From the NCBI GenBank assembly GCA_905178155.1, contig CAJINV010000011.1, positions 3,195,144-3,259,143 on the forward strand: a stretch of 64,000 nt of DNA, read 5' to 3'. Shown here one piece after another: positions 1 to 63,049 of this stretch. The notes under the pieces were generated by a model, which was not told the origin of the DNA, did not search any database, and worked only from the letters and a program-made list of their open reading frames with translations. The number at the start of each line of letters is the position of its first letter. Positions within the stretch are counted from its first letter, which is position 1. Position numbers and translations under genes: made by a program. This DNA is from Amoebophrya sp. A120 (lineage: Eukaryota; Protista; Dinoflagellata).

Positions 1-3000
1 ACGCCTTGCCTTGTCCACCAGGTTTGTTCCCCGCATTGTTCGCCGAGGTGACGTAGACAAACATCTCTATGGGATAGGGCGGGGAGAGACACGAATCTAA
101 AATGTGAAACACGTCCGTTCCACTATTCGTAAACGCCTTGTAGACCGCAAGCAAGAGTTTCCTGAACTTCGTCCTCTGTTCTAGCTCGTATCAAATGTAA
201 AAATGTCTGGGTCTGGAAGATTCTGAAACTTGTCATGGGCCACGATGTCTGTGATGCATGCCCTAGCATCACAGACTTTTTGAGGGCTTCGTGACGCGTA
301 TTCCGCATGACAAATGCCCTCGCCGCGTAGCCAAAATTGCATTCCCTTTGCTGGTCATGCAATACAAATTTTTTTAGAATCCAAATGCAGCATCACAAGT
401 TCGGATTCTTCCAGACCCAGACATTTTTACGTTTGATAGCTCGCCGAATACCACCACGCAAAGACTGTCCCCGTCGTGGTTCGCGGAGTACTGGTAAAAA
501 TGGGAATCCGACAACTTTCCCCCTTTTCCAGCGGCCCGCATGCCCCCATTCGCCGAGGGAGAGACGGAGCTAGCCGTTGGGGAGTGACTTGTGCTGTTCC
601 CACTATTATTCCCTGTTAGTGCCACCACTGCGGAATCCGTAACCCCGGTCGCCTTCTCGAGAATCTTTTTTCGTTGCTGGAACCAGTCGACCAGATCCGT
701 CGCGGACAGAGCAGGAGTCGATCCCGGGTTGTTCGGAGAGGCCGGAGGTATGGGTTGATGCAGTTGATGTTGTTCCCCTATTGCTGCTGCACTTTGGTTA
801 GTACCACTGCTATTGCCCGAAGCTCCTGTTGATCCACCACCTGGTGCTCCTCCCGGCGCACTACCAGAACCCGCTGCTGACGTCGCTCCCGTGGGTGTCC
901 TGGCAGTAGTTGTACTGCTGGAAGATATTAAACCTCTGTCGGAATTTGCGTTTACAGGAGTGACGTTTCCCGCCCCAGAAGTTGTTGTGTTAGAGTTCTG
1001 TGCTTGCTGTGTCGCACCGCCGCTGTTGCTGGACCCTTTGGAAGATGAACTAGAGCTGGACCCTCCGCCGGTGTTGTTACCACCACCAGTGATGCACTGC
1101 AGATGGAAAATATCTACTGCTTTTCCCTCGCACTGAGAAATGAACCTCCGATCCAACGGCCTGCCCTCGTCGTACGTGAGTCTTTTCAAGTCCTTCAACT
1201 ATCGTAAGCAAAAACGTCCCCACCCCATAGTCAAGTTGGCAAATCTGCAACACAAATCCCCAACCTTTGGGAGTTGTGCATGACAAGTTCTTTCCGTCTC
1301 TAGTATAGTGGTGCTTAGCAAGGCAAGCCGCATGAGAAAGCCAATTTCTCATCCTGTTTACAGCATTACAAATGCCAAATCACGATTAGAAATAGAAATG
1401 CCTCTCATGGGGATGCGCATTACAAATGTTCCTGTCATTGCGCATTTGCATTACAGCTCTGGGGTGGGGACGTTTTTGCTGAGGATATCAACTTCCGTGA
1501 AATCATGGCGTCATCCCCCACGGCTTTGGCAGAGACGCCGAGCCGCTCCACCCCGTTCCCCAGCAGGGTTTCGATCTCCTTGGGGGACTATCAAATGCAA
1601 AAATGTCTGGGTCTGGAAGGTTCTAGACTTGTAATGCTGTCGCTGGATTGTAAAAAATTTGTATTGCATGACCAGCCAGAGAACTCCAGTTTGTGGCACG
1701 CGGAGAGGGCATTTCTCATGCGGCAGAGGCATCGCAAAGTCCTCTAAAAATCTATGATGCTAGGGCATGCATCACAGACATCATGGGCCATTCCAAATAT
1801 GCATGACAAACCTGGTAATCTTCTAGACCCAGACATTTTTGCATTTGATAGGGATAGCGCGAGCTTCGTGCGGCTGTCGCCCTTCCGGCAAGGGTTCGGG
1901 GGCTCCGCGGCCATCCGCCCATTCACCGACTGCGCGGCAAAATGAACTTTGATGTAGGCGGCGAGCTGTGATGATTTTCATCAATCTTGAGTAGAATCTT
2001 GACTAAGTACGTATTTTTTTCAATACTTCTTTTTTCGAAGCACATAACGAACATCTTCCAAAAGACAAGAGGACACGTCCCAAACGTCGAAACCTCATAC
2101 TGATACACAAGAAAAAAACAGGTACTAAGTGGTCAAGTATACGTTTTCATCCGTTACGCAGGCAGTCCCGTCGTTGCTATGATTTTGGTGGTTTCCAGGC
2201 CCCGGCGGGAGCGGTTTGTGGTCCCTTGCGCGCATGATGTAGAAGAAAAACTCGCGCTTGTCCGTGCTCCCGGGCGTGGCCTTCGCACAGGGAAACACGC
2301 AGAGCTGTGGTTTGATAGTGACAGTTTTGGAGGCACGTAGTTCCGGGTTTTTTGAAATGGACAAGTACGCGCAAAAAAACATGGGGTAGGTATGCTCAAC
2401 ATCAAGCGCTGACCTTTACAACGTTGCAACATTCAAACCGTACCATGTCTCGAAAATCTTCGACATTCAAGCTGAAGCACCAATCGGTGCACGACCTTCT
2501 GAACTACACGACCAACAGCAAAAATAGCCGCTTATTTTTGGAAAGAAACTTCTATACCTGCTTTTTGAAGTGGTGTTCCAGATCGTAAATTTTTCTCTGC
2601 GGAAACGCTTCCGTGGTTTGCAGCCGGATTAACTCCGGGCGGTCCCACACGGGAAGCGCTTGCACCTCCGGCAGCCCGAGCAAATCCGTCACGTCCAAAA
2701 TGGCCCGCTTCCCCTGCCGCGGGGAGCTGCCTTCCGCTACGGTGAACATTTTGGCCTGCAACCGCCAGAGCGCGACCAGGCACCGGGCGCGCTTCCGGTC
2801 CGTCTTGTTTCCCATGATCGCCGCGGGGAAAAGATTCGCCTTCTTCTTCCAGTCTGTGTGGCTGCCGGGACAAATCAACTTCGCGCCCGTAACCGTCTGG
2901 CACACGTCGGCCTGAGGAATGGTGTGTTCATCAGTTTCAAAGTACTACTTATCTCAATCTATCAGCGATGTTGAATTCTGCGGCGAGGACAACTTCTACA

Positions 3001-10900: not shown

Positions 10901-13724
10901 TAAGGTCCTGTGCTGTTAAGACGTATTGGTATAAAAATCTTTTTCTATATACGACACGACCAAGCCGCGGCGTGGTACAGTCATTTACGAGCCAAATCAA
11001 ACTACCCATGCAAATTATTCGCAAAAAAAAGAAACAAAACAGTATAGAAATTTATACCGCCCCTTCCAGCAGGTCCATGTTCAGCGCAGATATGCAGATG
11101 CACGTCGACTGCGCCTCCGACTCTTCCCTATTGGTGGTCGCGATCGCGATCCCGGCTGCCTGCGTCTCCTTCTCTTTCAGCGTGTTGGGGAAATTTTTAA
11201 GGCACCGCCCGTTGTTCACCTCCACCATGATGATTTCCGTCAACCAGTACGGCCTGAGCACCGCCGATTTGTAGCTGTGACACCGCTCCAGCGCTTTCAC
11301 GACCTTCTTCGCGTGTAACACCGCACTCATCGACTGTTCCCGAATGATCTCAATGCAGCAGATCGCCACCGCTCGTTCCCTCGGGGTGCCGATCACGATG
11401 CAGACCTGTTTCTCGTGCTTCCCCAGCAACTCCAAAATCGCCCCCGACCGGCGCTCGATCCCCTGCCGGGTCACCCGGTTCTTCCCGTTGATGAACTTCG
11501 CCTCGATCTTGTTCGCGAGGGTGATGCGGTCCGCACCCCAGTCCGCGTTGCAGAAATGCGTCGTGTAGAGGACCCGTTCATCAGTTTTCATGTTGTTTTT
11601 GTTGTTCTTCTGGTTCTGGTTATTGTTGTTCCCGCCTCGGTTATTGTTCCCCCGCTGGTCTCCTCGGCTGTTCGCGTTGTTGGCGTTATTGTTTCCGCTC
11701 GGCCCGTCCGCGAGCTGCTGAGCGAGGGCGCGGAGCTTCTCGACGAGCGTTTTCCTCCGCTCTTCCAATGGCATGCGAATTATCGTGTCGTCGTCCATTC
11801 CGAGTACGCCAAAACCAAGGGAGGGCTGAGTTTTGTGAAGTTTGATTGATGTTCCATCATGGAGTGGATTGGCTTTATGATTATGGGTCATAGACCGCTT
11901 ATGAGTACAACTATACTATAACCCTGACAGCATCATAATTATGATGTGCTGTGCTGCATACACACAATAAAGCAAATTTACCTTCGGAGCCTGTTTTATC
12001 GGACTCTGAATGTGTTTTGCGGAATTCGCTTTCGCCGCCCAACTGCCGGCCGCCGCCGCGGAGTGTTGGTTCCGCATGATGCTGCCCCAGGTTTTCACGT
12101 GCGCGCGGTGGTCCTCCTCGCTGGTGACAATTGCGGTTTGGCACAACGGACAGGTCTTCAATCCCTCCAGCTGCGGGGCGCACTGCTCGCAGAACCAGTG
12201 GAAGCAGTTCCCGTGCGAAAGGAGAACCCCCTTGCTTAAATCCGACACCTCCGTGCAGAAGGAACAGGGCGCCATGAGGCCATTGTACTTGTTCGCGTTC
12301 GTTTGGTCCTTTTTGTTGTTAGCTGTACCTGCTCCTGGGTTCTCCGACGTCGGCTCTTTCAAACTTCCACCGTCTGGGTTATTTTCTTTTGTTTCACCAG
12401 CATTTTTCTCTTGTTTCGCATTGTTCGCACCGTCCGCAGATTCCTGCAAGCTCGGACCGACACTAGAAGTACCGTTCATCATTCCCGAATTGTTCCCGGC
12501 TTTCGGCACAACTTTCGGGAAGGTGTGGGACACTTTGTCCTTGTACAGCAAGTCATAATGGCCCGGTTTGTACAAGAGAAAAAATTGCCCCCCCGGGCCT
12601 TGGAAATCTGCCGTCGGGTACTCGTGGGTTTTCGTGTGTTCCGGATTTTCCTCGTCCAAGGGGACGACATCCACTTTCGCTTCAAAAAAGTACGCCGCGG
12701 AAGTTAAAACCAAGGACTCCGCCTCCTTTCCCATGGCGAGCACCTCGGAATTGATGTAGTCCTCCAGATCCATGCCAAAGGAGAGCTTCGTCAGTTCCTG
12801 CAGCGTCCCGCCCCCAAACTCCCCGACGTTGTTATCTTTCTCCGCGCGCATGTGGCGGGAAATCCCGTGCCGCACCAGCCACACGACGAAAAGATCCATG
12901 TGCTGGGAGGTCATCAGGGTGAAGTGGAGTTTCTTGCTGTCCGTGACCAGATATCAAAAGTAAAAATCCCTGGAGGTCTGGAAACTTGTGATGCTGGGTG
13001 GCGTCTCATGATGAGGCTACAAATGCTGGCTCAGCATGACAGGTTTCTGAGCTCCTAGGTGTTGCCTATTCTGCATGACAAACTGCGCTTCTGCATCACA
13101 GAAAAGCGGAGCTCTTGGGCAACGTGCATGACAGATTCAAGAGTCATGCCAGACAAGCATGACAAACATGAATTCTTCCAGACCCAGACAATTTTGCACT
13201 TGATACCAGATCCCGAAGCTCTTTGAGCAGTTTCGAAAACTGCTGCACCGCTTTCTGCTCGATCTCCGTGACAAACGCGGGCGGGAGAAGGAACTTCTCC
13301 AACCGCTCGCGCTTCGCGGCCTTGGACTGTTGTATATGTGGAAATTCGGTGAATGAATTTGATCAAATTACATAGCGCACAAACCGTAGTACATTCTGTT
13401 CTCAATAGTTGAATATTTTCCTGTATCAAAAGTATATCCAAACACATCAATCTCAGCCTTTACCAGCGTGCTACAGGCCAGCGCCTCCAAGAAGGCGAAG
13501 CCCATGGCGCGGTAGAAGCAGTTGCCGTCCCCGCGGACCAGCCGCACCTGGTTGATGCCATCTTTCTGGATGGAATCCAACTGCTCCCGCCCGGAGGTGT
13601 TGGAGACGATCAAACTACTCACATCCTTCAGCTCAGACAGGGGGTACTTGGCCGGACTCGAGTCCGCCGCGGCCGCCTCCAGCACGGCCGACCCCCACTG
13701 CTCCACCTTCCGCGCATACGCCAT
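1..13724 (-). CDS. Large multi-exon gene (3' end runs off the window): otubain-type OTU deubiquitinase + RING finger + KH-like repeats + long Q/N/S-rich low-complexity region
   Basis: OTU motifs VRGDGNCFYRA (ORF 13368-13724) and LLYKPGHYDLLY (ORF 11916-12914). RING-like CSFC..GNCFHWFCEQC..CPLC at ~12135-12268. KH-like FINGKNRVTRQGIERRSGAIL..IVIGTPRERAVA at ~11340-11500. Most successive ORFs join in frame through GT-AG introns (e.g. APK|gtaaat..actcag|PSL; EGA|gtataa..tatacag|VKE; AH|gtatgg..ctacag|GPN; EE|gtactt..ttaacag|TPL) and four TIR introners; joins between ~1950 and ~3430 were not fully resolved. True start may lie upstream. Confidence 0.75.
189..438. mobile_element. Introner, TIR family A
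   Basis: TATCAAATGTAAAAATGTCTGGGTCTGGAAGA...TCTTCCAGACCCAGACATTTTTACGTTTGATA, flanked by GCTCG/GCTCG. Removal of element + 5 nt gives VFGE-LEQRTKFRKLL, open to the window edge. Confidence 0.92.
1200..1487. mobile_element. Introner, TIR family B
   Basis: TATCGTAAGCAAAAACGTCCCCACCCC...GGGGTGGGGACGTTTTTGCTGAGGATA, DR TCAAC/TCAAC. Join reads ISRKL-KDLKRL in frame. Confidence 0.92.
1589..1850. mobile_element. Introner, TIR family A
   Basis: TATCAAATGCAAAAATGTCTGGGTCT...AGACCCAGACATTTTTGCATTTGATA, DR GGGAC/GGGAT. Join reads KLALS-PKEIETLL. Confidence 0.92.
7874..7908 (-). repeat. (CAG)n polyglutamine tract within the Q-rich exon
   Basis: Perfect CTG run on the + strand, translated as poly-Q in ORF 7259-10873. 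Confidence 0.85.
12952..13205. mobile_element. Introner, TIR family A, inside the OTU domain
   Basis: TATCAAAAGTAAAAAT..GGTCTGGAA...TTCCAGACCCAGACAATTTTGCACTTGATA, DR CCAGA/CCAGA. Join reads KELRDL-VTDSKKLHFTLMTSQH. Confidence 0.9.
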
Positions 13725-14966: not shown

Positions 14967-17247
14967 TCAGATGACCCAGCCTACAAAAGGATGAGAAAAA
15001 ACTGTCAGCAGCGGCCGGCGCGGACAAAAGAGGACAATGTCGTCATTGCCCCCACCGCGCGCCCGCGGCGACATGTCTTTCTTTCCAATTTTGTTCTCGA
15101 CGAGCATGAACCTGGAGCAGGGAGGAACAACGACCTTCAGGGACTTTTGATGCGCATTTTTGATTTTTCCAAGAGTGACTACGGATTTCTTTTTCACAGA
15201 GACATCTTCTTTCCTCTGAGCCAGCCCTTTCAGGACCTATAGTAACGTGTTGGAGACAGTTGTAGCGTTGCTTTTTCGTTTCATACAGTTATACTTCCGA
15301 ATGTGGCATCTTCTTTGAACTTGCATAAAAATGCGGACGCTGTGTTAACATGGATCTTTCTGTCGAGATTTTACATCATTTTGTTCGCGGAGAGACCAGA
15401 TCTGGATGGTGAAGATGATGAAGCATTCATCAGGAAGGGACAGTGCAAAAACAAAACCCCGCAGTTGTAGCGATGGTTCTATTGCTAAAGAAGCCACGGG
15501 GCCTCCTTCTGTTGCGCATGGAACACCCAAGTAATCCACAGAAAATGTTGAAGTTTGTGTTTGTCCTGGACAAAAAATCTCAGCAAAATGTGACCCATTT
15601 TCATGTATAATATTTTCCACTACTTTGTACGTCCGAAGTATTGATTCAGTGTTCATTATCTATACAGTATTTCTTTTTCTTCCGAGGAAAAGACAGGTTC
15701 TCGTGGTCACGCCAACATCAAATCAGGCAATTTTTATCAGAAGCACATCTGCTAAAACACTTTCAGCAAACCACCTGCCTCGCGAAGTCTTCGCACATCG
15801 GGCCGAGCACCTCCCCGTCGTCTTCGTTCCCTTCCCCGACCTGCTTGCCGTCGGTGGCGCCCCGGTAGGGGTACCGCGTTTTCCCGGTGCGCGAGTCGTT
15901 TACCTGGTTGAAGTACACGTCGTAGGTCCTCCCCTGCTTAATCTGCTGCTCCGTCTGTTCCTGTTTTTCCCGGGCCCGCTTTGCCCGGTATCCCAAGAAA
16001 AAAACTGTTGGTGAAACACTCTTGGAGTGCCAGCATGACAAATTTGCTCTGCATGGCAGAAAAAGCCTGTCATGCGCAGGCAGCACGTCAAAACACATAA
16101 TAAAAGAGGACTTTATGGCTGGCTAGCATGACAAGTGTACACTGTGTTGCATGTGTTTGCATCACAGACTTACACTTACACAGTTGTTTTCTTGCATACC
16201 CGGACCTTCTCATCCAGTACTTCCTCCTGGTGCACCATCTTCATCACCATCCCCTCCAGCAGGTCCACTCGCCGAACCAAGTCCTCGTGCTTTTGCTGCA
16301 AAATCTCGTCCTCCCAGTCTTCGGCGAGCGTCGCTTCGGGGATCCGCGGGGACGGAGGCTCGGCCGCCGCGGAGACGTTGCCCGCCGACGGTTTACTATT
16401 CCGGAACCCCGGGTGGGACGCTGGGTCGGTCGGGAAGACACGCTGTGTGTGATGATAATAGTGGGATCTTCATCTTTTTTCGCATTCTTTCATCTTCACT
16501 TGAACGCCTCTCTTCCCGAGGTGAAGATAGAGATCATGGATGGAAATAAAACCAACTTGAACATTAAAAGAAACGTTGCAGATCTCCCGCTGGTCTAATT
16601 TATTAGGTGTTGAGTACTTTATTTCCCTGCTCGTCGTAGTACAAGAAGTAGCTTCTGCCCTCCTCGTCGTGCGCAAGTTTCTGCGCCAGCTTTTCCTGCG
16701 GCTCCCGGTCTGTGTAATCCTCGTCTGTATCTTGTACTTCCTCCTGCCGCGCACCTTGATGAAACATCGTCGTAGTTCCGCCGGCTTTCATGTTAATAAT
16801 CCCTGCTGCGGGTTGGAAACTCGTGTAGCCAGCACCGGCGGCGGAAACTCCGACGGGTTGATGTTGAACCTCGGCTGCGGACATCGGCGGTGCGATCATT
16901 CCCGGGGGTATGGTCTCCACCGTTCCCGGGTTGTTGTACAAATTGTTCTGACCTCCTCCTGTCGCTAAAGTTTCGATGCTGGGCGACATGACGCTGTACA
17001 CCGGCGGCCGCTCGGGTTGGGAAAATTGTGCCTGCGCAAGCAGTTCCTGCTGCGTCACCGGGGCGGAAGCGGCGCCGGATGTTGGAAGCCCAGCGAGGCC
17101 GCTGTTAGGCTGTGGTCCTCCTGCTGCGTTTGCAAGATCTGTGTTGCTCTGGTAAACGTGGTTTTCGGAGATTCGGCGCATGCGACTCTTCAACGCTTGC
17201 TTATCAAGCATCACCTGGCCCGGGGGGCCGAGGGTAGGGGCTTGCAT
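14967..17247 (-). CDS. Multi-exon hypothetical protein
   Basis: ORF 16603-17247 plus exons ~16199-16445 and ~15775-15983, joined in frame across introner 15989-16198 (VLDEKVR-AKRAREKQ). The last exon (~14967-15120) is inferred. No family recognised. Confidence 0.55.
15989..16198. mobile_element. Introner, distinct TIR family C
   Basis: TATCCCAAGAAAAAAACTGT...ACAGTTGTTTTCTTGCATA, DR CCCGG/CCCGG. Internal GCATGACA/GCATCACA motifs; frame restored on removal. Confidence 0.85.
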
Positions 17248-24781: not shown

Positions 24782-26243
24782 TCAATTTGAATTTACGAAC
24801 GTCGCGGCCCCCGAGCCTCCGACGATCAATTGCTTCGCTATCCCCCCGCCTCCCGCCGAGGCTGCGCCCCCCGAGCCCAGCACGTCATTCCAGATGTAAT
24901 TCAATAACCCCGGCCCGTCCAGCCCCAGCGCCTCCCGCACTTTCCCGTACCCCGTGGCGTCGGCGTCGATGTAGGCTGCCTCGATCGCCGCCCGCGCACT
25001 CCCCTCCTGCTGAATCTGCGCCGCCGTGCCCAAGGCGAGCGTGACCGTTTGGTTGGCCCGAGACGCGGCTTGGAGCAACCGCGTGGACAGCGTCACCTGC
25101 TTCGCCTGCAAAACTTTCTCCATTTTCGTGATGTTCTGCTTCGTGGTCGCAGCTTGTAATACTGCGTTGTAGAAGGCGGGGGGGAGGTCGTCCTCGTTGA
25201 TTTGAAACGACTCTACCAGGGCGAACAAATGTTTTATCAAATGTAAAAATGTCTGGGTTCTGGAAGGTTGGCGCTTGTGATGCTAATTCTGGATCATGCA
25301 AAAATCTGTGTTGCATGAATGCCAAAAGTTGCCCACTTTTGACGAAGTTGAGAGGAAGTTTCTCATGCAGGATAGGCATGATAGGGATCCCGCAGAATCT
25401 GTCATGCTAGGTCCTGCATTCCAGATGACATGGATCATGGAAAATCTGCATGACAAGTCTCGGAATCTTCCAGACCCAGACACTTTTGCATTTGATGTGT
25501 TTCTGGAAATACTCGTCGAGAACTGCTCGCATCTGGGTCGCGATGGCCTGCTTCTCGTTGAAGAACTGGCACTATGCGTTGCAAATATGTCTGGGTCTGG
25601 AAGATTGAGAGATTTGTATTGCTGAACTCGCATGTCCGTGAACTCTGTGATGCAGGTTGTGCAATAGCGCCACTCCTCTGTCAAGCAAAAAGGCGATTTC
25701 TCATGCGGGTTACGCACGACCTAAGCGCTCAATAATTTCTCATGCGTGGCTGCGTATTGGAATCAGTTGGTGATGCATGTATTAGCATCACAAGTTTCCA
25801 GACCCCGACATATTTGCATTCAATAGGTACGCGGTAAATTTCGTCGCCTGCTCGGTCACTAAATGGGCCGCGACGCGCCGGTAAATCCGCAGATAGTCCT
25901 CCCCGAATCTATGGTAGAGCAAGTACAAATTCATCGGGTCTAGCCGGTACTGAAAGCTGGCCCCGAGAATCAACGGTAACCCGTCGGACGTGCGCCCATC
26001 CAGAATATCCGCGTCGTCAAATTGTAGCGTTTGGATGGTCTTCGGAAACCGCTTCAGCGTCGCGAACGGGAGCACGTAGAGCCCGTTCGTCGTGTAGGGC
26101 TTGGGGTCCACGGTCTCGAGGATGTAGTTGTATTTCAAACCCATCTCGATGGGGGATAACTGCGTTACACTCGCGACGAGAATGCAAGCCGCGATGATGA
26201 GAAACGCGATGATCGCGCCGAAAGCACAGGCGAGGAGGCCCAT
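24782..26243 (-). CDS. SPFH/Band-7 (prohibitin/stomatin-like) membrane protein, three exons
   Basis: N-terminal TM segment, then EMGLKYN..GLY..FPKTIQTL..RTSDGLPL..SFQYRL. Exons join across two introners: KFTAY-QFFNEKQAIATQMRAVLDEYFQK-HLFALVESFQI. Confidence 0.85.
25235..25497. mobile_element. Introner, TIR family A
   Basis: TATCAAATGTAAAAATGTCTGGGT...CCAGACCCAGACACTTTTGCATTTGATG (terminal TA changed to TG), DR TGTTT/TGTTT. Frame restored. Confidence 0.9.
25573..25825. mobile_element. Introner, TIR family A
   Basis: TATGCGTTGCAAATATGTCTGGGTCTGGAA...TTCCAGACCCCGACATATTTGCATTCAATA, DR GGCAC/GGTAC. Frame restored. Confidence 0.9.
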
Positions 26244-26817: not shown

Positions 26818-29800
26818 TCAGTCGATCATGCCAGATCGTTCCCGCTGGTACTTCTTGAACCCGTCCACACCCCGGCGCGCCAGCACCTCGCAGTGTCGCC
26901 GCGTCATGTTCCCCTCGAGCGTCAAAGCCCGCAGCGCCACCCAGCAGCCCCAGGACAACGGCAAGTCCCGCAGGCTGTTGTTTTGTAGCAACAGCGTGTT
27001 TAACTTCGTCACGGCGAACACTTCTCCGTTGGTAATCTCCTGGATCTGGTTGTCCGATAAATCCAACACCGTCAACTTTCCCCCGAGCGGCAGCTTTTGC
27101 ACTGCTTCCTGGCCGCACAGGCGGGAAAAGCGGTTCTGCGACAACCGGAGCTCGTGGAGGTTCAGGCACGTGCTCACGTCAGGGAGTAAAGTGAACCGGT
27201 TGCGGCTCAAATCCAAAGATTGTAAGAACGGTAAGAACAGGTGAATCTGCGTGCCCCAGTTGCACCGGACGAAGGCCAGCTGGCGCAGGTGGCTAAAATC
27301 GAAACCCGGCAGCGGCGAGGAGGACAGAAACGCACAGATGCTGCCGGCGTCCTCCAGCGCGTAGCCACCGCAGTTTTCGAAGTGCAGAGCTTGCGGGCAC
27401 GTAGTTTCGGGGGCGTAGCCGTCGCACAAATTGTGCTCGAGCTCGCGAGCGAGCATGTCGATCGTGGAAATCACTTTATTTTTGAAAACGCCGCGGACCT
27501 GGATAATCGAAGCGGGGTCGCGCGTGGTTGTAGGAGCACCCGTCGAGTTATTATCGTAGTAGGCGTTGATCATGTTGTTGTTACCAGGAACTCGTCCACC
27601 TGCCGCTACGGAGGCGCCAGGGTAGGTGGGAGCTGCAGTAGAGCTAGAGCCCACGCCAATACGAATATTACCCATGTTCATGTTACTGTTTCGGGGACAA
27701 GGAGGTAACGATCCCGCAAAGTTCTGTTGGGGGATCTGCTCGTTATTATGGTGTCCTCCTCCAGAGGGGGGAAAGGGTCCTCGTGGGGGCGGGATTATAT
27801 TGTGATTATTTTGCATCCTCGCGTTCGTTCCCGTCGGAAAAATGCCGTTGCCCGAATAAGGCGGAGACGTGGTCGAGTAGTAGGGATTGTTGTCGTTGTT
27901 TCCACCGCCAAAAGCCTGCCCTCCAGGACAGACCTGCTGCTGCACACTTTGGACTGTCGAGAGCCGTCCCACGCCGGAATGATCGGGAGAAGATTCGAAT
28001 CCCCCACGACCGGAGTTGTGGCTCATCCTGGAGGACCTTGGCATGTTGTCGGTAGTTTGATGGTGCCCATTATTCGCGGCCAGTACCCCGGCGAGCGCGC
28101 CCAGGAGCACGGGCGTTTCCACATTTCGAAAAGAACTGCCGACTTCCGCCGCCGCGGGCGAAGTGACAGACGTGATCGAGGTCCGGTTCTTGTTCTGAAT
28201 AATATTGTTCCCAGTGCAACCGCCAATAGAAGTGGTATTCATCCCAGATGAACTTCTACCCGCGGGTAAGTACTGCTGCTGTCGCGAAGAAGAAGTGTCG
28301 GGCAGGTCGAATTGCGGTCCACCTCCAGAAGACTGAAAACTGCCATTATTACCTGGCTGCAGTTCTTGCTGGAAGGGGGACAGGTCAACGAACCCGTCTA
28401 CACCGGTTGGGATGTTGACGCTGTTGTCGCTAAAACTACACGACGACGACGAGGGACCAATATTGTTATTAACATGCGAGTTGTTGTATCCCGTGCAAGA
28501 AAAGCATCGCACTCTTAGTCGTACTGATTGCAATCGTATGACAGATTGCACTTTGCAGCGACGTCGCTGTTAATTGCAAATTCCATTTTTCATTGCGCAG
28601 CACACTTTACTTTCTATATGCAATTGATACTATTGAGTGCGATGCTTTTCTATTTAATGCATACGTTGTGCCGGTCTCGCAGATACTTTTTCAAATCCTC
28701 CACACCGCCGCGGAGCACTTGCGGCCGGATGGCCTTGATCGCGTTCCCGTCGGTGACGATTCGTTTCAGCTCGGGAGAGAAGCCCAAGCTGGTCGGCAGG
28801 CAGGTCAAGTCGTTGTTCTGAATATCTAACGTTTGGAGGTGCGGAAAATTCAGGGCCATGTGCTCCGGGAGCGATCTTAACTGGTTGTTGGAGAGAATCA
28901 AAACGGTCAAATTGCTCGGGGTTTGCTTCGGAAAGGGGGAAGCGGTGTTGTTTTTGGACTCATTTTGTAGTTCTTGGTCGAAGACTACGTGTTGGCCATG
29001 ACCACCGCCACCGCTGTTCAAAAAAATCCGGTCCTCCATGTCGCCGAGTGAATCCATAGGAAAATAAACAAACCTTGTTCCCCATGATCCGTTTTAGCAT
29101 GACAAATGCAGGCCATTTTTCATGTTTTGCATGACAAATTGAGGATGGGAATACATGGTATAATATTTTCCTGGATAGTGCAGCCGGTTGTATGCTAAGT
29201 TCAAAGTATCCAAGTTGAGCATCGCGGTCTATGAATTGCAAAAGTGTCTGGGTCTGGAAGGTTGGAACTTGTGATGCTAACTTTGGACTCTAACAAAATC
29301 TGTATTGCATGACTAGCAAGAGGAGTCTAGTTTGTGCTACCCGGGGAGGGCTTTTGTCATGCGGAGTAGGCATCAGGAAGCCCTCTAAGGATCTGTGATG
29401 CTAGGTCGTGCATTACAAACACATCCTGGGCCATGCAAAATATGCATGACAAACCTGGCAACATTCCAGACCCAGACATTTTTGCAATCCATACGGTCCC
29501 GGACTGCACGATCGAAATCTGGTTTTGCGACGCCGTCAGCGTTCGGAGTTTGTCCATCAGGGTCAGGTCCAGACCTGTCAGCCGGTTTTTGTCCACTTCC
29601 AGCTCCACCACATTTCGCAAGCAGTCGAAGGGGCCGAACGGCCCCGTCAGCGCATTCGCCTTCAAATTCACCCGCACGAGGTTCGGGAAGAACCGGAGAA
29701 AGTTCGGGCAGGGCAGGTTATTCTCGGCCGCTTGCAGAATCGCGAGCTGAGAACACGGGGTCGTGTTTTTCACGCCGTTGTCTTGTCCTCCACCTGGTGT

Positions 29801-32947: not shown

Positions 32948-35707
32948 TCAGACCGCCCACGCATCCGTGCTTTTCCTCAATCCGAGTTGGGCGTCCCGGA
33001 CTTGTCGGGTGAAGACCCGCTGCAGACTTTCGTGCCACCTCCGACACCGAGGCAATTTTCTAGAAATCGCCACCAGCAGCCCCTTATCAACTGCAAATAT
33101 GTCTGGGTCTGGAAGGTTGCAACTTGTAATGCTAGCTCTCCATACTTAGGAAATCTGTATTGCATAGCCAACAAAAGTCGCAGCCTCTTTCGTACATGCA
33201 AAAACGTAGTTTCTCATGCGGATTTCCTATGAGAAAGCGTTCTCAAAAGTTGTCATGCTGTGTTGCATTCGGAACTGTTTCCAACATCCACATTTTAGCA
33301 TCACAAGTTTCCAGATCCAGACATTTTTGCAATGCATACCCCTCGCTCGGGTCTAGTCTTTCCTCGAAGTCGTTCAAGTTTGGCGGGAACTGGCTATCCT
33401 CTGTAAAAACGTCCCCACCCTAGAGTTGTCATGCAGAATTACAATCACAGAAAAACTTGTAATGCGCATTTCCATGAGAGGCATTTTCAATCGTGTTATG
33501 CAATTTGTGAAGCTGTAAACAGGATACCAGGATGGATTTGTGATGCGGTTGTCCTTGCTAACCCGCATTACAGTACAGAGAAAAACTTGTCATGCGTGAC
33601 TTCCGAAACTTCTGGATCTGTGTTGCAGAATTCCCAACTTGACTCTGGGGTGGGGACGTTTTTACACAGGATACCGGCGGAGCTTGATCTTGTCCACCAT
33701 GCGGTTCACCAGAAACTGCTCCGCGTTGCGCTGCTCCAGTTTGGTGACGTTTGCGATTTTCTGTTCCTGAATGTTGAACTCCGTCAGTCGCATCGGATCC
33801 TTCAGAAAAAGCGGATCGTCGACTAAATACAGCTCGTAGTTGTTCTCGAGTAGGTGCTTGTGCAGTACCTCGTGCAGCAATTTCCGCACCTGCGGCCGGG
33901 TTGCGTCGTCGAACTCCCGATCAATCTGCCGGTCCATGATTCTTTCCTTCTCCTCCTCTATTTTCTGCTGCGCCAGCTGCGCTTCCGAAAGCTTCTCGAC
34001 CGCATTTAGCGGGACGGGGTCAATCAGTTTTTTCGCCGCCGGCTTTGGAATTCTCTCCCCGTTGAGAATGATATCTGGCTCGGCAGGAGCGGTATCAGCG
34101 GCTTGCTCCTTTTCCAGTAGTTCTTCTCTTCGTTTCCGCCAAAATTTGTCCGCCGAAGAGAAAATCCGCTCCGTCGACATCATCGCGGGGCGCGCTAGCA
34201 CCACGCAGATCTCGTTTTTCTGCAGCAGCACCTTCGCACCTTTCAGCGCGTTGAGCTCGCAGAATTGGCAATGAAGTTTCAGAATGTCGATCTTCGGAAG
34301 GTGGTTCTGGTTCAATATTTTTACTGGTGCGTTTTTATTGTCCACGTCCTGCTCTTGTCCAGTAGTTCCACTTGTTCCACCATCGGCACTATACGTCCCT
34401 CTTCGAAAGTAGTAGTCCAAGGTCACACTGACCACATCGTGTTCGCAGTCCGTCCGGCCGCTGGCGCAACTGTTCTCCGTGTCCAGAAACGTTTCCGCGG
34501 TCCGCGTGGTGGGGAAATACAGCGACTTCTTCTGTCCCGGCTGCTCGTCGTTGCCGACCAACATGTGCTCCACCTTCATACTTTGCTCCGCCCCGTGGCC
34601 GAAGATGGACCGCTTGAACGTCTGCTGCGCCAGCCGGTTCGGCTCAAACCCGGTGACCTGTACCTGCTTCCCAAACTTCTGCCACGCGTAGAGCGTGCAG
34701 TCGCCGGTGTGCGTGCCAACCTCGACTATGTGGAGGGGCGCGGAAGTACTAGAAATGCTACCGTGCAGCTGCGGAGTTTTCGACGTTGGAGCAGTAGTAG
34801 TCACAACACCGTCTATTGCAGCAGAAGATGTTGTCCTTCCTCCTACTATTGAAATTCCTTCCTCACTTGTCTCCTCGTGCGGCCGCAGGCTGTCCCAGAA
34901 TTCCGGGGCGGTCAAGTCCGCCATCGTGCTGAGCCCGGGAAGATTGTGGCCGGCGGTGGCCTGTCGTCTACGTCGAAACGCTCTGCGGGCGGAAACTTGG
35001 TCTGCGACGGGCGCGAACTCGCGGCAGGCGCCGTGCAGTGCCGGCGTAGAAGAAATTGCATGTTTTGCTGCGCGACCGCAGTGGTGGCTCGCCGCAGATT
35101 TTGTTACAGCAGCTCCGGCACTGGATATAGAAGTATTAGAGGTCCTCTTTCTTGTCCCGGCTGGCGACTTTTGTACCAGCTGCGCGCTACTGCTTGTACC
35201 TATCCGTTCTGCTACTGCCTTGACGGTTGTTTTTCTTTCTTTCATCATCCCAGACGCGCCTAGTACCTGGCTGTCTGCACGACCTGTAGTTCCACCGCCT
35301 CCCAGCGGGTCTACCGCGGGCAGGCTCTCGACCAACCGGAGCCAAAACGGTTCGGTGCACATCAATTTCCCTGTCGCCCGCACCACGTTGCTCAGGCTGT
35401 CCGTTGCCGGGATGGTGTGCACGCGCTCGCGAAGCACGTTGGGCGTGCCGGTTTCGAGCAGGCCCAGGATCGCCGGAAAAATGAAGGGCGTTTCCAGCAA
35501 CTGCCGCAACCGCCGCTCGTAGGGCACAAAGGCGTCCCGCACGCACTCTTCTGCCATGGTAATCAGCCGCTGCCCCTCCTTGTGCAGCAGTTCCGCGTGC
35601 TCCGTGTCGACCACCCGAATGGTCGGCGCGTCAAAAAACAGCACACTGTAGGCCGCTGCCAGGTACAGCGTGGCCTGCCGGAACTTCTGCGACCGCAAGA
35701 TCCGCAT
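32948..35707 (-). CDS. FkbM-family SAM-dependent methyltransferase
   Basis: HIVEVGTHTGDCTL, VTGFEPN, VTLD, IDILKLHCQFCELNALKGA. The C-terminus continues across two introners (KLRR-FPPNLNDFEERLDPSEG-LLVAISRK) to TGA at 32948. Confidence 0.8.
33085..33338. mobile_element. Introner, TIR family A
   Basis: TATCAACTGCAAATATGTCTGGGTCTGGAA...TTCCAGATCCAGACATTTTTGCAATGCATA, DR CCCCT/CCCCT. Confidence 0.92.
33395..33673. mobile_element. Introner, TIR family B
   Basis: TATCCTCTGTAAAAACGTCCCCACCC...GGGTGGGGACGTTTTTACACAGGATA, DR CTGGC/CCGGC. Confidence 0.92.
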
Positions 35708-40617: not shown

Positions 40618-40649
40618 AGGGTTTGGTTTAGGTTTCAGGGTTTAGGGTT
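40618..40649 (+). repeat. Degenerate interstitial telomere-like (TTTAGGG) repeats
   Basis: AGGGTTT GGTTT AGGTTTC AGGGTTT AGGGTT. Confidence 0.5.
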
Positions 40650-41367: not shown

Positions 41368-44300
41368 ATGGCGCCTGGAGGTTTATGGGACGCAAGAAGA
41401 AAATCTTAAGTCAACCCAATTGGAATTTCGTTACCGCAGCACACGGGGCTGCGAAGTAGAAAATGTGAATTTCCAAAGAAGTCAACCTGATTCTTTCAAC
41501 TGTGCAAGAAATGCATATGGCAGCGGCACTAGAGCCACCACCACGTAGTACAATTGAGCCCCAGGGCAAGAAATTCCAATCCCCTGCAAGATTTTTTTCT
41601 CTCCCCTTTCCATACCTGCCTTCCCGCACCAAAAAGTCCGAAGCGGACAAGCAGCTCGAGCGGCACATGGTGCTACTCGACTACGCGAAATTGAAACCCA
41701 ACATGCCCGCGTTCCAGTACTTAAAGCGGATCGCGGGCAACTGCGGCAAGGACTGCATCGCGCCCAACCACGACCCGGCCACCAAGGCGCTGAAGCCGAT
41801 TCTGGTCCACGAGGACGCGTGTGCGGCCTGCATAACCCGGGCGAAGAAGTGCCCGGACGATGCGGTGAAACTGGTGAAATTGCCCAGCAACCTGTCGGCG
41901 GACTGCACGCACCGGTACGGCATGAACGAGTTCAAACTGCACCGCCTGCCCATGCCCGCGCCCAACTGCGTGGTGGGGATTCTGGGGCAGAACGGGGTCG
42001 GGAAATCCACCGCCTGCAAGGTACTCGCGGGGAGTTTGAAGCCTAACCTGGGGGTTTTGCCGGGACTGGAATCTGACGGGAATAGCAAAAAATTCGTGAC
42101 CAACCCCACCTGGCTGGACATCATAAAATACTACCGCGGCAGCGACCTACAGAGCTTTTTTCGGGACCAGGTGGAGGGGAAATTGATCGTTTCCATGAAG
42201 GCGCAAATGGACTCGCAGTACGCGAAAAGCCTGGCCGGCAGGAAAATGCGAGATATCATCGAGGAGGCGGCGGAGGAAACGCTTTTGCAAGATTTTGGTA
42301 CAATTTTTTATAAAGGAAATAAAAAGGACAAAGGACGCCGGAAGATTTTTCGTGGTTATTGTTCAAGAAGTCAGGCCGTTTGCTTCAGATCGGGACGATG
42401 AAAACCCGTCTTTCAAACACAAATCTCTGAATTGTTGAACATCATGATTACATAAACTCTAATCCCAGGCCTCGACAACTCCTACTCGGCGCGCACGCTG
42501 CACATTCTGCGGGAGATGGACCTGCTCCACCTCCTGGACCGGGAGGACTGCGGAAACTTATCCGGCGGTGAGATGCAGCGGCTGGCGATCGCGGTGGCCT
42601 TATGAATTGCACAAGTACTGTCGTACTGGTATAAATTGCAGGCCGACATGACACCTATCTTTACCAACTTGAATCAGCATCACAGACTCCTCTTTTCATC
42701 TTGTTATGCAAAAACTTGTCATGCGATTTATGCTAGTGCAATGCAATGCTTTTGCAATGCATACGCCTGTTTACCGAAGGAAGCGAACGTGTTTATTTTC
42801 GACGAGCCGTCCTCTTTCCTGGACGTAAAACAGCGGTTGGCGGCGACGCGGCTGATCCGCGGGTTAGTTGACGAGGAGAGCTGGAATTTTAGTACGGTTA
42901 ATTCCGAGCAGCGAACCAAGAAGAAGTTGAACTTGGAGCAACTGGAAGTGGATTCTATCGACCCGGACGCGTCGCCCTCGAATGTGATGAACGCGGATGG
43001 AAATAATCAGCCACCCATTCTCTCCGACGACACGGCGTCGCTGAGCAGCAGCGAGGCCGCCCCCGAGGACACCGACGTGGACGACCCGGAGCCGGCGCCG
43101 TCCGTGCGGGGCGACAATGCGAAGGCGAGTTCCCTGCAGACGCGGTACGTGCTCTGCATCGAGCACGACCTGGCCATTCTGGATTACATGTCCGACTACG
43201 TGCACTGCCTGTACGGCGAGCCCGGGTTTTACGGCGTTGTGACAAAACGCGCCGGCGTGCGCAACGGGATTAACAACTTCCTTTCCGGCTACCTCCCGGC
43301 CGAGAACATGCGGTTTCGCACCGAGGAATTGACCTTCAAAGTGTCCACGGCCGCCGGAATCGACGTGGTGGGGAAAGAGAAAGACGCGAAGGAGAAGGAC
43401 GAAAAAACAAGTTCCGCCATAAAAAATCTCTCGTCGCAGCTCGCGCGCACCGGGACGCACACCTTCCCGGGCATGACTAAGGTGTTGGGCGAGGGGGAGA
43501 ATTCGTTCACTTTGAAGATCGAGGAGGGAAGCTTTTCCACCGGGCAGATTGTCGGCATGCTCGGGCAGAACGGAACGGGGAAAAGTACCTACATGGAAGT
43601 CTTGGCGGGCCTGCACGACAAGAAGGTGGAAGACAGTGGAGAGGGTGGGGTAGCGAGTGGAACCTCTACGGAGGGTGTTGGTCAGGGAAGTGCCAGTGGT
43701 AATAAAAAAAGTGCAGTTGCCGAGAAGAACAAACCGAAATCTTCTACAGCAGCAGGTTCCTCCGAAGAGGACGCAAATACAACTTCTTCTAAACCTGACG
43801 CCACGAAATACATCTCCGACCCGACGTCTTTACCGGCCGCGGGGTTCTCCATGTCATACAAGAAGCAGGACTACGCGCCGAAATTCCGGCGGTACCCGGG
43901 CACCGTGCGCCAGCTGCTGGAGCGCAACATCACCAAGGCGTTCTGCAACGACAGCATGTTTCGCTTACTGGTGCTCCGCCCTCTCGGGTTCGACGACACC
44001 GCGAGTTTGACCAGCGGATCGGGCAACGACAGCATTCTGGACATGAACGTGAAAACGCTGTCCGGCGGGGAGCTGCAGCGTTTGGCGATCATCCTGTGTC
44101 TCGGCACACCCGCCGCGGTCTATCTACTGGACGAACCCAGCGCGGGGCTGGATTGCGAGCAGCGCGTCAAGGTCGCGCGCGCCATCAAGAAGTGGGTCCG
44201 GGACCACCTGCAGCGCACGGCGTTCATCATCGAGCACGACAGCGTCATGATGACGGCCTGCGCGGACAAGGTGATTCTGTTCACGGGGACCCCGGGGAGA

Positions 44301-44672
44301 AAAGCAAATGCCAGCACGCCGATGAACTTGGTGGACGGGTTTAACGCGTTTTTGAAGGAAATGAACGTCACCTTCCGTCGCGACCCCGTGAACCTGCGCC
44401 CGCGGATTAACAAACCCGGCAGCGTCAAGGACCGCGAGCAGCTATGCCTTTGCAAAAACATCGTAACGGTGGTGGTACAAATTGCAGTCATGTGCATGAC
44501 AAATTAATGTGGTATTTGAAGCTGGCTCAGCATTACAAATCCCAGGTTTTTTTTTTACTTGCCAAATTATTCTGTCATGCTCTTTCTACTAGCAACTACG
44601 ATGTACTTTTTCAGTGCATAGCAGAAGGCCAGCGGGAATTTCTACGAGTTCGACCCCGACGAAGAACACTAG
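41368..44672 (+). CDS. ABCE1: ABCE1/RLI1-like ribosome-recycling ATPase (divergent), five exons
   Basis: HRYGMNEFKLHRLP, GQNGVGKST, LSGGEMQR, FDEPSSFLDVKQRL, IEHDLAILDY, GQNGTGKST, LSGGELQR, DEPSA, TFRRDPVNLRPRINKPGSVKDREQ(K)ASGNFY. One GT-AG intron (42298-42468) and three TIR introns. The start ATG at 41368 depends on the first TIR intron. Confidence 0.9.
41384..41614. mobile_element. Degenerate introner (DR eroded)
   Basis: TATGGGACGCAAGAAGAAAATCTT...AAGATTTTTTTCTCTCCCCTTTCCATA. Flanks AGGTT/CCTGC do not match, but removing element + 5 nt links ATG 41368 in frame to SRTKKSE. Confidence 0.6.
42601..42763. mobile_element. Introner, short family
   Basis: TATGAATTGCACAAG...CTTTTGCAATGCATA, DR GGCCT/CGCCT. 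Join RLAIAVA-CLPKEANVFIFDEPS restores the ABC signature-to-Walker B segment. Confidence 0.9.
44443..44620. mobile_element. Introner, short family
   Basis: TATGCCTTTGCAAAAACATCGTA...TACGATGTACTTTTTCAGTGCATA, DR GCAGC/GCAGA. Join restores the conserved DREQKxSGNF tail. Confidence 0.88.
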
Positions 44673-57690: not shown

Positions 57691-57814
57691 GACGCTAAAA
57701 GTCTAACCTTCACCGTGCCATCGTGTTTAAAAATCTGGGCCTCAGCACGTACCGGTCTCTAAAAAATACATACATAAAACCGCAGTTACGTAGCCCTAAT
57801 CTAGCAGAAAGACC

Positions 57815-61118: not shown

Positions 61119-63049
61119 ATGAGTCAACGGCTCTCCAGCACTACAGGGCGTGCAACAGTAGTTCAGCCGTACCGGCGGATTCAGGCAGCAGCACCAGGGC
61201 CAAGGAAAAGCTACAAAGCTGCAGCTGTCGCCTCTAGAAGAACGTTATGCGGGTTTCTCGCTTCGCTGGTGCCGCCTTCGGCTGTACTTGATGCACATGC
61301 TGAATTTTTACCAGGAACTGCTGGCGCAGAAGTCTTGAATAAAAACGAGGATGTTATCCCAGCGTCGGCGGTCCTCGTCCCAACATCATCGGACGGAGGT
61401 TCATCCGCAGCACCGGAAGACATCACAGCGAGCCCGTTTCTCGCTTTTTCCGAGGTGACGCCAGAAGGAGCGACGTCAACGTTCGAGCAACTGGACATCA
61501 GGCAGGCAACATCGAGTGGGCGCAGTGCGGATGTCGAGGTGCCGACTTCATCATCCGCAGGAGAAAGAAACTATGACGCCGACGAGGAAGCGAAAAAAGT
61601 CGTGCTCGCCATCGACAGAATGACCACCGCACTGCGAGGAGGAGGAGAGGGTGTGGAAGCAGGAGGAACCACGCATGAAGTAAACGTCTCGACGACGGCA
61701 GAGGCTCCTCGCGAGCTGAGCGCGATCATGGAGCGCTACGCACCGTTGATACACGCCGAGTTGCACGACGCCGCCACTGATGCTGAGGAGCATGGTGAAG
61801 CTCCTTCTTTTCGTGCCGAAACTATTTTCAGCTTCAAAAGAATTATCGAAGTGAAAAATCCCCCCTCCTTATATCCAGATGAAAATTTGTGTTTGTGATG
61901 CTGGAATTCCGTACACAAATCTTCAGATCTGTCTTGCAGTAAAGGAGTGCATGCATATGCCGGGCCTGAATCGAGAGCCTTTGGCGTAGGCACCTAGCAT
62001 GACAAATGTCTATGCTGCAAGCCCAACAGCATGACAAACCGCCTGCGCAATGCGGCGGACTTTCTGCGTTTGCCTTCTTTCAAGACAAACAGGATTTCTG
62101 GTTTTACAAATTTGCATCGCAAATCTTCAGATTGATGCGTTTTTTATATGGGGAGCGCGGATTTTTCCTCACCATAGAAAATGCTGTGCTGACCAAGAGA
62201 AGTACAGCTACAGCCGGCGTCTGCCGGGCGGTAATCGGGTATTTCTCTTCCCCAGCCGAGATTACCGAGTGCAGAAACTGCCGCACTTTGAAGCCCGGGA
62301 ACTTGAAGAGAAGCGTGCTGAGAGCGCTGCGGGAAGAACAGCGCGTCGAGAAGCAGATCCCGCCAGGAATGGTCATTTCTGCTTCATCGCCAGGTGTGCT
62401 GCCGCTGCCGGAAAGACAACTAGGAGAGCAGGGGGAGGGGAACCACGACATCAGCACGACGACAGCACGACTGGGCAAGAATTCCAATGCCTGTGCGGCA
62501 GACTCCGAGCAGTCCTGTGCCGGGCTCGTGCTGTCCCAGAGCGAACGGAAGTGCCGCAAGCAACGGCGGAGCGAGTGCTGCGCCTGGGTCCGGGAGGACG
62601 CACGGACGCTGCTGCAGGAATTTGAGGCGGTGGTGGAATTGGAAGAACATGATGAGCCGAAAGAAGAACGACCGTCGAGGAGTCGTGAAAAAAATCCGCT
62701 GCGTGTAGCGTTGAAGGAGTTGGAGGCGAAGTTCCAGCTACCGCTTTTCCGTTCAACTGGTCGTACTGCACGGGATGCTGTAGAAGTTCCGTCTACCACG
62801 ACTTCACACTATACGAGGTCCCCCTCGAGCTTGTTTCCCACTACGTTGCACAACCTCGCACTGTTTTACGCCTTGGCCTCGAACGGGGCGCCAGGGCCGG
62901 CGGCGCGGCTGTTGCAGGAGGTGGCGGAGAAGCTTGTGGCGGGAAACAACGGTTTGAAAAGCAGCACGAAAAAAATCATCGCGCATCAGGTCCTGCTCGA
63001 GCTCGGAGAGGTGGCGCAGCTCCAGCTACAAGAGGCGCTGTTGGGGTGA
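61119..63049 (+). CDS. Hypothetical protein, two exons split by an introner
   Basis: ORFs 61119-61898 and 62006-63049 join in frame (FSFKRI-AVLTKR) on removal of 61844-62176 + 5 nt. Confidence 0.65.
61844..62176. mobile_element. Introner, divergent family
   Basis: TATCGAAGTGAAAAATCCCCCTCCTTATAT...ATATGGGGAGCGCGGATTTTTCCTCACCATA, with internal GCATGACAAA x2 and TGTGATGC. DR eroded (AGAAT/GAAAA). Confidence 0.72.

What the first reader, a model, noticed from the sequence alone, without database searches (positions are those of the whole stretch)
189..62176. Invasive non-GT-AG TIR introners: 17-18 MITE-like elements in exons, all removable by one 'TA...TA element + 5 nt' rule
Seen: every element lies inside coding sequence (none found intergenic), nearly all start TAT and end ATA, all have terminal inverted repeats, and most have a 5-bp flanking direct repeat. 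In each case, deleting the element plus 5 nt restores the frame. This holds even within conserved ABCE1, OTU and SPFH segments, so these genes must lose the elements at RNA (or DNA) level. No consistent GT/AG sits at the ends, although ordinary GT-AG introns occur in the same genes. Known: IR/DR-bounded non-canonical introners are described in Amoebophrya, and to my knowledge their excision machinery is unresolved. Inference: a second, structure-guided splicing system shared by several TIR families.
Basis: partly seen in the sequence, partly recalled or inferred. Interest (0 to 1): 0.9.

Follow-up and report, generated by a model that had tools for sequence, protein, structure and literature searches.

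The report
Transposon introns cut at fixed offset
These are the already described transposon-derived introns of the marine parasite Amoebophrya; the ones that could be checked leave the mRNA at one fixed offset from their inverted repeats without GT-AG ends, likely by a relaxed spliceosome, which makes their unsolved splicing mechanism testable.

Summary
Observation confirmed: 18 elements (127-333 nt), all in coding sequence, TAT at 34 of 36 ends, with inverted repeats and a 5-bp duplication. Two genes match database proteins labelled Amoebophrya sp. A120, and the termini match the published A120 introner motif (Farhat 2021), so the elements are known. Removal of element + 5 nt is shown by contig joints for 4 of 4 elements laid, and supported for 13 of 18 in all. 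New here: imperfect duplications fix the cut. All 9 informative elements fit one register in transcript direction: intron = N-TAT...ATA-NNNN. The paper called these borders variable or unknown, yet its 9 commonest A120 non-canonical site types all have T at +2. The register follows transcription, not DNA strand, and holds where the duplication has decayed, which argues against DNA excision and RT artefact. No G(+1) or AG preference was found in 120 related insertions. The catalyst is untested: I put a relaxed U2 spliceosome at about 0.5 and a separate Euglena-like machine at about 0.33. RNA evidence is contigs from one sample.

The parts
189..438 (-). Introner e1, family A; inferred intron 185-439
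   Evidence: TIR, perfect 5-bp repeat; frame logic only
1200..1487 (-). Introner e2, family B; inferred intron 1196-1488
   Evidence: frame logic only
1589..1850 (-). Introner e3, family A, opposite orientation to e1 in the same gene; inferred intron 1585-1851
   Evidence: frame logic only
12952..13205 (-). Introner e4, family A, in otubain (Peptidase_C65) gene; inferred intron 12948-13206
   Evidence: frame logic only
15989..16198 (-). Introner e5, singleton; inferred intron 15985-16199
   Evidence: frame logic only
25235..25497 (-). Introner e6, family A, SPFH gene; transcript 5' end CAT instead of TAT; intron 25231-25498
   Evidence: spliced protein equals P0002
25573..25825 (-). Introner e7, family A, SPFH gene; intron 25569-25826; 3-5 nt of the 5' repeat copy kept
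   Evidence: contig edge at 25826; P0002 exact; Tyr in 38 of 39 homologues
28487..28663 (-). Introner e8, singleton, LRR gene; intron 28483-28664; at most 4 nt kept
   Evidence: contig edge at 28482 and gap sum; P0001 exact
29051..29177 (-). Introner e9, singleton, LRR gene; decayed repeat (2 of 5); intron 29047-29178; 4-5 nt kept
   Evidence: gap sum; P0001 exact
29230..29493 (-). Introner e10, family A, LRR gene; intron 29226-29494
   Evidence: gap sum; P0001 exact
30187..30478 (-). Introner e11, family B, LRR gene; intron 30183-30479; 4-5 nt kept
   Evidence: P0001 exact
30549..30810 (-). Introner e12, family A, LRR gene; intron 30545-30811
   Evidence: P0001 exact
33085..33338 (-). Introner e13, family A; intron 33081-33339
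   Evidence: contig gap sum 543 with e14
33395..33673 (-). Introner e14, family B; intron 33391-33674; 4-6 nt kept
   Evidence: contig edge at 33673 and gap sum
42601..42763 (+). Introner e15, singleton, just after the first ABC signature motif of ABCE1; intron 42600-42767; 1-5 nt kept
   Evidence: joint 42596>42765, 168 nt, runs X2 and X3
44443..44620 (+). Introner e16, singleton, ABCE1 C-terminus; intron 44442-44624; at most 4 nt kept
   Evidence: joint 44436>44620, 183 nt, runs X1-X4; ABCE1 identity
58065..58327 (+). Introner e17, family A, in one member of a local paralog family; intron 58064-58331; 3-5 nt kept
   Evidence: joint 58062>58331, 268 nt, runs X1-X4; three paralogs shown uninterrupted at this site
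61844..62176 (+). Introner e18, singleton; decayed repeat (2 of 5); intron 61843-62180; 2-4 nt kept
   Evidence: joint 61840>62179, 338 nt, run X1
42298..42468 (+). Ordinary GT-AG intron in ABCE1 (control: the contigs are spliced mRNA)
   Evidence: contig edge 42296; loose end at 42468 matching the upstream exon in X1-X3

Best explanation
These are non-autonomous terminal-inverted-repeat elements with 5-bp target duplications that sit in exons of Amoebophrya A120 genes and are missing from transcript contigs as element + 5 nt, cut 1 nt before the TAT and 4 nt after the ATA wherever the cut could be bounded, likely by the resident U2-type spliceosome with relaxed end recognition. Shown: element anatomy; presence in DNA-like contigs; absence from spliced contigs; removed length; a single register that fits all 9 informative elements and follows transcript direction. 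Inferred: insertion by a DDE transposase supplied in trans (none seen here). Inferred: because both ends carry the same TAT[C/G]nnnnGnAAA sequence, either orientation offers N-TAT at the 5' end and ATA-NNNN at the 3' end, and removing one duplication's worth of bases restores the original mRNA at any site. Inferred: the hairpin, or a protein bound to it, would stand in for U1 and U2AF in defining both ends; TAT would be read as donor +2 to +4; the 3' cut would be set by distance from ATA; G(+1) and AG are not needed. The shown part I hold at over 0.9; the confidence given is for the whole, including the catalyst.
For: Register bounds (nt of the 5' repeat copy kept): joints give 1-5, at most 4, 3-5 and 2-4; contig edges give 3-5, at most 4, and 4-6; database proteins give at most 4, 4-5, 4-5 and 3-5. 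Only 4 fits all. Table S4 of PMC7789003: 9 of 9 predominant A120 non-canonical sites have T at +2, and 9 of 9 in A25 begin TT where the repeat begins TTA, so both strains would have T+2 and A+3. Ten candidate canonical introns here all begin GTA (4 GTAT, 5 GTAC, 1 GTAA). U1 snRNA was undetected in A120 and A25 but other snRNAs and most proteins are present; U1 is found in a strain with GT-AG introns. Fritillaria shows a U2 spliceosome handling 95% non-GT/AG introns. In a second assembly 202 of 251 elements have an exact 5-bp repeat, and +5 removal gives a coding score over 5 in 102 of 251 against 14 and 10 for +3 and +4.
Against: No test of the catalyst was possible. No preference for G at +1 (43 seen, 38 expected) or AG at the end (15 seen, 11.3 expected) among 120 oriented insertions, and no covariation of +1 with -1 (P 0.43, n 137); a relaxed spliceosome might be expected to keep some. 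The donor-like TAT is predicted to be buried in a stable stem. I found no branch-point consensus. The match to donors is only 2-3 letters, and 9 of the 10 canonical introns are my own picks by eye, unverified by RNA. The lower bound of 4 rests on one contig edge and two annotated proteins, which may derive from the same RNA data. All four RNA-like runs are one sample, contigs only, RNA status guessed by the tool. Table S4 classes depend on the aligner's choice among slidable sites and cover about 20% of introns.
Confidence: 0.5

Rival explanations
1. A separate, spliceosome-independent machine (endonuclease plus ligase, or an unknown RNP) recognises the paired TAT/ATA stem end and cuts at fixed distances on either side, as proposed for Euglena nonconventional introns.
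For: Same logic as the Euglena code N3-CDG...CH'G-N5-6: a paired triplet at fixed offsets from both cuts, with the longer tail on the 3' side. Indifference to +1, -1 and -2. Stable hairpins, z at or below -2.6 in 16 of 18 (20 shuffles each). Euglena introns leave as non-lariat circles.
Against: It does not explain why both strains place T and A at +2 and +3, or why U1 is missing just where these introns occur. Triplet, offsets and the Euglena 3'-exon purine differ. No candidate enzyme was looked for; no genome was available.
Confidence: 0.33
2. The elements are self-splicing RNAs.
For: Strong predicted structure; an invariant A lies 7 nt before the 3' cut, the spacing of the group II branch A (recalled).
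Against: 127-333 nt, mostly unrelated interiors; no Rfam match in the window; both orientations of one family occur in one gene, which a ribozyme would not tolerate.
Confidence: 0.04
3. The elements are excised from DNA in the expressed life stage, like ciliate internal eliminated sequences.
For: TA ends and transposon anatomy. Only 15 of 441 joints were shown and the cross-run table was not given, so rare DNA excision is not excluded.
Against: The DNA-like run X5 has single contigs across 25791-29256 and 40638-44790 that keep four elements, at even depth. In + strand coordinates, plus-strand genes keep 3-4 nt of the left copy and minus-strand genes keep 1: the asymmetry follows transcription.
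Confidence: 0.04
4. The joints are reverse-transcriptase template switches across a hairpin at the direct repeat.
For: Hairpin plus short direct repeat is the textbook setting (recalled). The 2.2-kb piece at 55566-57770 shows four different joints.
Against: All 18 would put stops in frame if retained, two of them in ABCE1. Elements with only 2 of 5 repeat matches are still removed as element + 5. The register is constant.
Confidence: 0.03

Closest known systems
Introner elements of Amoebophrya sp. A120 (Farhat et al. 2021, PMC7789003; read: outline, sections 10, 11, 16, passages, supplement part 3 and figure legends; figures not seen)
   Same: TAT + 7 nt + AAA repeat start, 3-5 nt direct repeat, about 240 nt, hairpin, non-canonical ends; the window's proteins are identical to A120 database proteins.
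   Different: The paper calls splice sites variable relative to the hairpin and the border unknown. Here the duplication is 5 bp and one register fits. The shared internal motif is not in the passages I read.
Euglena nonconventional introns (PMC12501133, part 1 of 6 and passages; PMC11282704 section 6)
   Same: No GT-AG; paired terminal triplet at fixed offsets from both cuts; slidable direct repeats; coexist with ordinary introns; MITE origin proposed.
   Different: CAG/CTG at +4 and -8 to -6 against TAT/ATA at +2 and -7 to -5; Euglena needs a purine at the 3' exon start; circles shown there, untested here.
Fritillaria borealis non-canonical introns (PMC11282704 section 6; PMC13326754 passages; Henriet 2019 not read)
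   Same: MITE-derived, with TIR and TSD, most introns non-GT/AG.
   Different: Preferred ends (AG-AC, AG-AT) remain and U1 is kept; here the end bases are free and U1 snRNA is undetected.
Micromonas and Aureococcus introners (PMC11282704 and PMC9860276, passages)
   Same: TIR/TSD DNA transposons whose splicing restores the original mRNA.
   Different: They carry or co-opt GT/GC and AG; these do not.
IS3EU/GingerRoot DNA transposons (PMC10045372, passages)
   Same: TA..TA termini.
   Different: 6-bp duplication there, 5-bp here; no transposase seen.

Membership tests
Amoebophrya A120 introner elements | Inverted repeat starting TAT, seven variable bases, then at least three A | tested here: met
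   TAT at 34 of 36 ends; A at positions 11-13 in 35, 34 and 32 of 36 (definition)
Amoebophrya A120 introner elements | 3-5 nt direct repeat at the exon/intron border | tested here: met
   5 of 5 in 8, 4 of 5 in 8, 2 of 5 in 2
Amoebophrya A120 introner elements | Repeated, RNA-supported, non-GT-AG intron | tested here: met
   two families in the window; thousands of related contigs in X5; joints
Amoebophrya A120 introner elements | Host is strain A120 | tested here: met
   P0001 and P0002, named Amoebophrya sp. A120 by the source, equal the spliced window proteins
U2-type spliceosomal intron | GT/GC donor and AG acceptor | tested here: not met
   0 of 18 at the inferred register or at an equivalent slide; 6 of 137 in the second assembly
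U2-type spliceosomal intron | Branch point and lariat; dependence on U2/U6 | not testable with these tools
   contigs only; the raw-read runs X7 and X8 did not cover the exons
Euglena-type nonconventional intron | N3-CDG ... CH'G-N5-6 then purine | tested here: not met
   N1-TAT ... ATA-N4
Euglena-type nonconventional intron | Ends held by base pairing | tested here: inconclusive
   terminal pair predicted in 15 of 18; TIR position 4 not compensatory (0.51 against 0.52 expected), positions 8-10 in excess; prediction only
Euglena-type nonconventional intron | Released as a non-lariat circle | not testable with these tools
   no excised-product data
MITE (non-autonomous TIR DNA transposon) | Short, TIRs, constant-length TSD, many copies | tested here: met
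   exact 5-bp repeat in 202 of 251, exact 4-bp in 1 and 6-bp in 1
MITE (non-autonomous TIR DNA transposon) | Cognate autonomous transposase element | not tested
IS3EU/GingerRoot | TA..TA termini | tested here: met
   definition
IS3EU/GingerRoot | 6-bp TSD | tested here: not met
   5 bp
Group I/II or other described ribozyme | Rfam covariance-model match | tested here: not met
   0 matches at gathering threshold

The most novel reading that the evidence does not exclude
A120 has a splicing code in which a transposon end alone defines an intron: N-TAT...ATA-NNNN, blind to G+1, to AG and to the duplication, so any insertion in either orientation is erased from the mRNA. It is run by a machine other than the spliceosome, perhaps a domesticated end-binding protein that reads the shared internal CAT[G/C/T]ACA motif, convergent with the Euglena code, and able to remove even a 2.2-kb hairpin-bounded piece when the end signal has decayed.
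Probability: 0.3. Interest if true: 0.9.

Novelty: already known. Interest (0 to 1): 0.55.

Why it matters
About two thirds of A120 introns are non-canonical and their splicing has been unexplained since 2021, with borders reported as variable. A single register turns them into one defined class. It says where to look for a branch or a circle junction, allows re-annotation of tens of thousands of introns, and gives a minimal cassette for reporter tests. Either outcome matters: a spliceosome that ignores G+1 and AG, or a second nuclear splicing machine that arose apart from Euglena's. It also explains how a transposon can fill exons, even of ABCE1, at little cost.

Tried and rejected
Whole genome: none held. 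Run search: no holder is on record as RNA; X1-X4 are guessed RNA, supported by the spliced GT-AG intron and empty intergenic bins. In one search the joint table was swamped by repeats from X5 (15 of 441 shown), so minus-strand bounds come from contig edges. Homologue search for the first gene found nothing; the query was probably in the wrong frame. One search failed on a wrong start coordinate and was redone. Viral contigs: no match to the family A end. No similarity between the window outside elements and the 158 loci held from the second assembly, so no orthologous empty sites. Nearby GT-AG pairs with other in-frame lengths exist for 14 of 18 but none matches an observed joint. An apparent G excess at +1 (52 G against 23 C) vanished after codon-position correction. 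Branch-A idea (A at -7): 4 of 10 candidate canonical introns share it, about chance. Canonical intron search: 11 places tried, 9 gave an open frame. My strand model mis-called 2 of 18 window elements. The motif count outside elements in the second assembly (647) is not usable, because undetected elements remain. Invariance of AT and AAA in the 113-element table is partly built into the detection; the anchor-based check gave TAT in 175 of 181. Earlier-findings look-ups returned nothing. Paper searches showed no report of the register; Roy et al. 2023 (Curr Biol) and Henriet et al. 2019 did not appear in the listings and were not read, and supplementary figures S19-S25 of Farhat et al. could not be seen, so the register may be in print.
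Full report
Observation. A scan for inverted repeats with flanking direct repeats, a motif scan and end refinement gave 18 elements of 127-333 nt, e1-e18. A search for further TAT...ATA pairs 60-1500 nt apart found only these and cross-pairings between them. TAT stands at 34 of 36 ends, and the ends share TAT[C/G]nnnnGnAAA across family A (9 copies), family B (3) and six singletons. The 5-bp repeat is perfect in 8, 4 of 5 in 8, and 2 of 5 in 2. All 18 lie in reading frames and each carries an in-frame stop. With about 63% coding DNA by my hand models, 18 of 18 has P about 2e-4. Host genes include otubain, SPFH, an LRR protein and ABCE1.

Identity. Exon queries hit proteins that the source labels Amoebophrya sp. 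A120 at 100%. Farhat et al. 2021 (PMC7789003, sections 10, 11, 16) describe A120 introners with repeats starting TAT, seven variable bases and three or more A, with 3-5 nt direct repeats. The elements are therefore known. That paper states that splice sites are variable relative to the hairpin and that the border is unknown.

Removal from RNA. Four contig runs from one sample (X1-X4, RNA guessed by the tool) hold 50-57% of the words of 24700-34200. They lack several intergenic bins and have a GT-AG intron of ABCE1 spliced out, so they behave as mRNA. In one search all 4 elements in the stretch are skipped by exactly length + 5: 168, 183, 268 and 338 nt. In one search, two X1 contigs have gaps of 583 (269 + 132 + 182) and 543 (259 + 284) nt. 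In-silico removal of element + 5 reproduces P0001 (1076 aa, five elements) and P0002 (311 aa, two elements) letter for letter; these annotated proteins may rest on the same RNA data. In all, 13 of 18 are supported; e1-e5 rest on frame logic. Run X5, evenly covered across intergenic DNA, keeps e8, e9, e15 and e16 inside single contigs.

The register. Where the two repeat copies differ, the mRNA shows which copy it kept. Counting nt kept from the 5' copy in transcript direction: e15 1-5, e16 at most 4, e17 3-5, e18 2-4 (joints); e7 3-5, e8 at most 4, e14 4-6 (contig edges); e8 at most 4, e9 4-5, e11 4-5, e7 3-5 (proteins). At e7 the kept copy gives Tyr, found in 38 of 39 homologues, which is independent of the annotation. 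Only 4 satisfies all 9 elements, if one register holds. The intron is then N-TAT...ATA-NNNN. In + strand coordinates plus-strand genes keep 3-4 nt of the left copy and minus-strand genes keep 1, so the asymmetry follows transcription. e7 and e17 are probably in opposite element orientation (through e13) and both keep at least 3. e9 and e18, with decayed repeats, obey the same rule, so the repeat is a footprint of insertion, not the signal. Table S4 of the paper lists nine predominant A120 non-canonical site types, all with T at +2 (GT, CT, AT, TT), as the register predicts, and nine for A25, all starting TT where the repeat starts TTA. The table depends on aligner choices and covers about a fifth of introns.

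Wider sample. In the 158 loci held, 202 of 251 detected elements have an exact 5-bp repeat, against 1 for 4 bp and 1 for 6 bp. Removing element + 5 gives a coding score over 5 in 102 of 251, against 14 and 10 for +3 and +4, and 52 of 250 random sites. Among 120 confidently oriented sites with perfect repeats (of 303 detected by a broader rule), codon-corrected counts show no preference: G at +1 43 against 38, AG at the end 15 against 11.3, G at -1 50 against 40.

Structure. Sixteen of 18 fold better than shuffles (z at or below -2.6; 20 shuffles each). The terminal pair is predicted in 15 of 18, not in e8, e12 and e18. Position 4 of the repeat is C or G at each end without compensation, while positions 8-10 pair in excess. 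The terminal letters thus look conserved as sequence as well as pairing. An internal motif (GCAT[G/C/T]ACA, GCATGAGA and complements) gives 67 of 68 window hits inside elements, which make up 7% of the window, and occurs in 245 of 251 elements of the second assembly. I devised the pattern from these elements; its role is unknown.

Mechanism. Insertion is inferred to be by a DDE transposase in trans; TA..TA ends resemble IS3EU/GingerRoot but the duplication is 5, not 6 bp. For removal I favour the resident spliceosome (0.5). The cut places T and A at +2 and +3, as in ten candidate GTA donors of the window (nine picked by eye, one RNA-supported) and apparently in A25. U1 snRNA is undetected in A120 and A25 but present in a GT-AG strain. 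Fritillaria gives a precedent. From my own knowledge, G+1 and the terminal G pair with each other in the second step, so losing both together is coherent. Against: no residual G or AG preference, a donor buried in a stem, no branch consensus. A separate Euglena-like machine (0.33) fits the geometry (N3-CDG...CH'G-N5-6) and the indifference to end bases. Self-splicing, DNA excision and RT artefact are each under 0.05 for the reasons given under rivals.

Verdict. The finding is real and belongs to a published system. The claim of a second splicing system is open. Interest 0.55.

Noticed in passing
window 55566-57772: A GC-rich 2.2-kb piece upstream of the gene at 57816 is skipped in X2-X4 by four different non-GT-AG joints (2198-2207 nt). 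Three can share the 5' cut after 55565; 3' cuts vary. It has a 25-bp inverted repeat near its ends, no duplication, degenerate TAT/ATA, and no Pfam hit in four ORFs. It may show imprecise cutting when the end signal decays, or be an artefact; each joint is one low-depth contig.
   Followed up: partly
all elements; loci L001-L158: At the inferred register, phase 0 is in excess: 12 of 18 in the window and 64 of 120 in the second assembly, with no clear target-sequence preference. Unexplained.
   Followed up: partly
inside 17 of 18 elements: Internal motif CAT[G/C/T]ACA in both orientations, 2-6 copies per element, shared by unrelated families; candidate binding site for a transposase or a splicing factor.
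   Followed up: partly
window 45841-59588: Six tandem intron-poor paralogs of about 450-510 aa with no Pfam hit in the two tested; only the last carries an introner.
   Followed up: partly
window 31740-32200 and 36420-36990: Two intergenic tandem arrays: an 83-nt unit with a palindromic core, and a roughly 20-nt unit.
   Followed up: no
window 20000-21700 and 38200-40650: GC-rich non-coding-looking blocks; the second surrounds an AT-rich stretch and ends in telomere-like repeats near 40620, with raised depth in X5.
   Followed up: no
window 21802-24210 and 17617-19995 (minus): Uninterrupted ORFs for a C-5 cytosine DNA methylase and an SPX/DUF202 protein.
   Followed up: no
window 54674 and 60736: Loose ends in X1 and X2 contigs that continue into sequence not in the laid stretch.
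   Followed up: no
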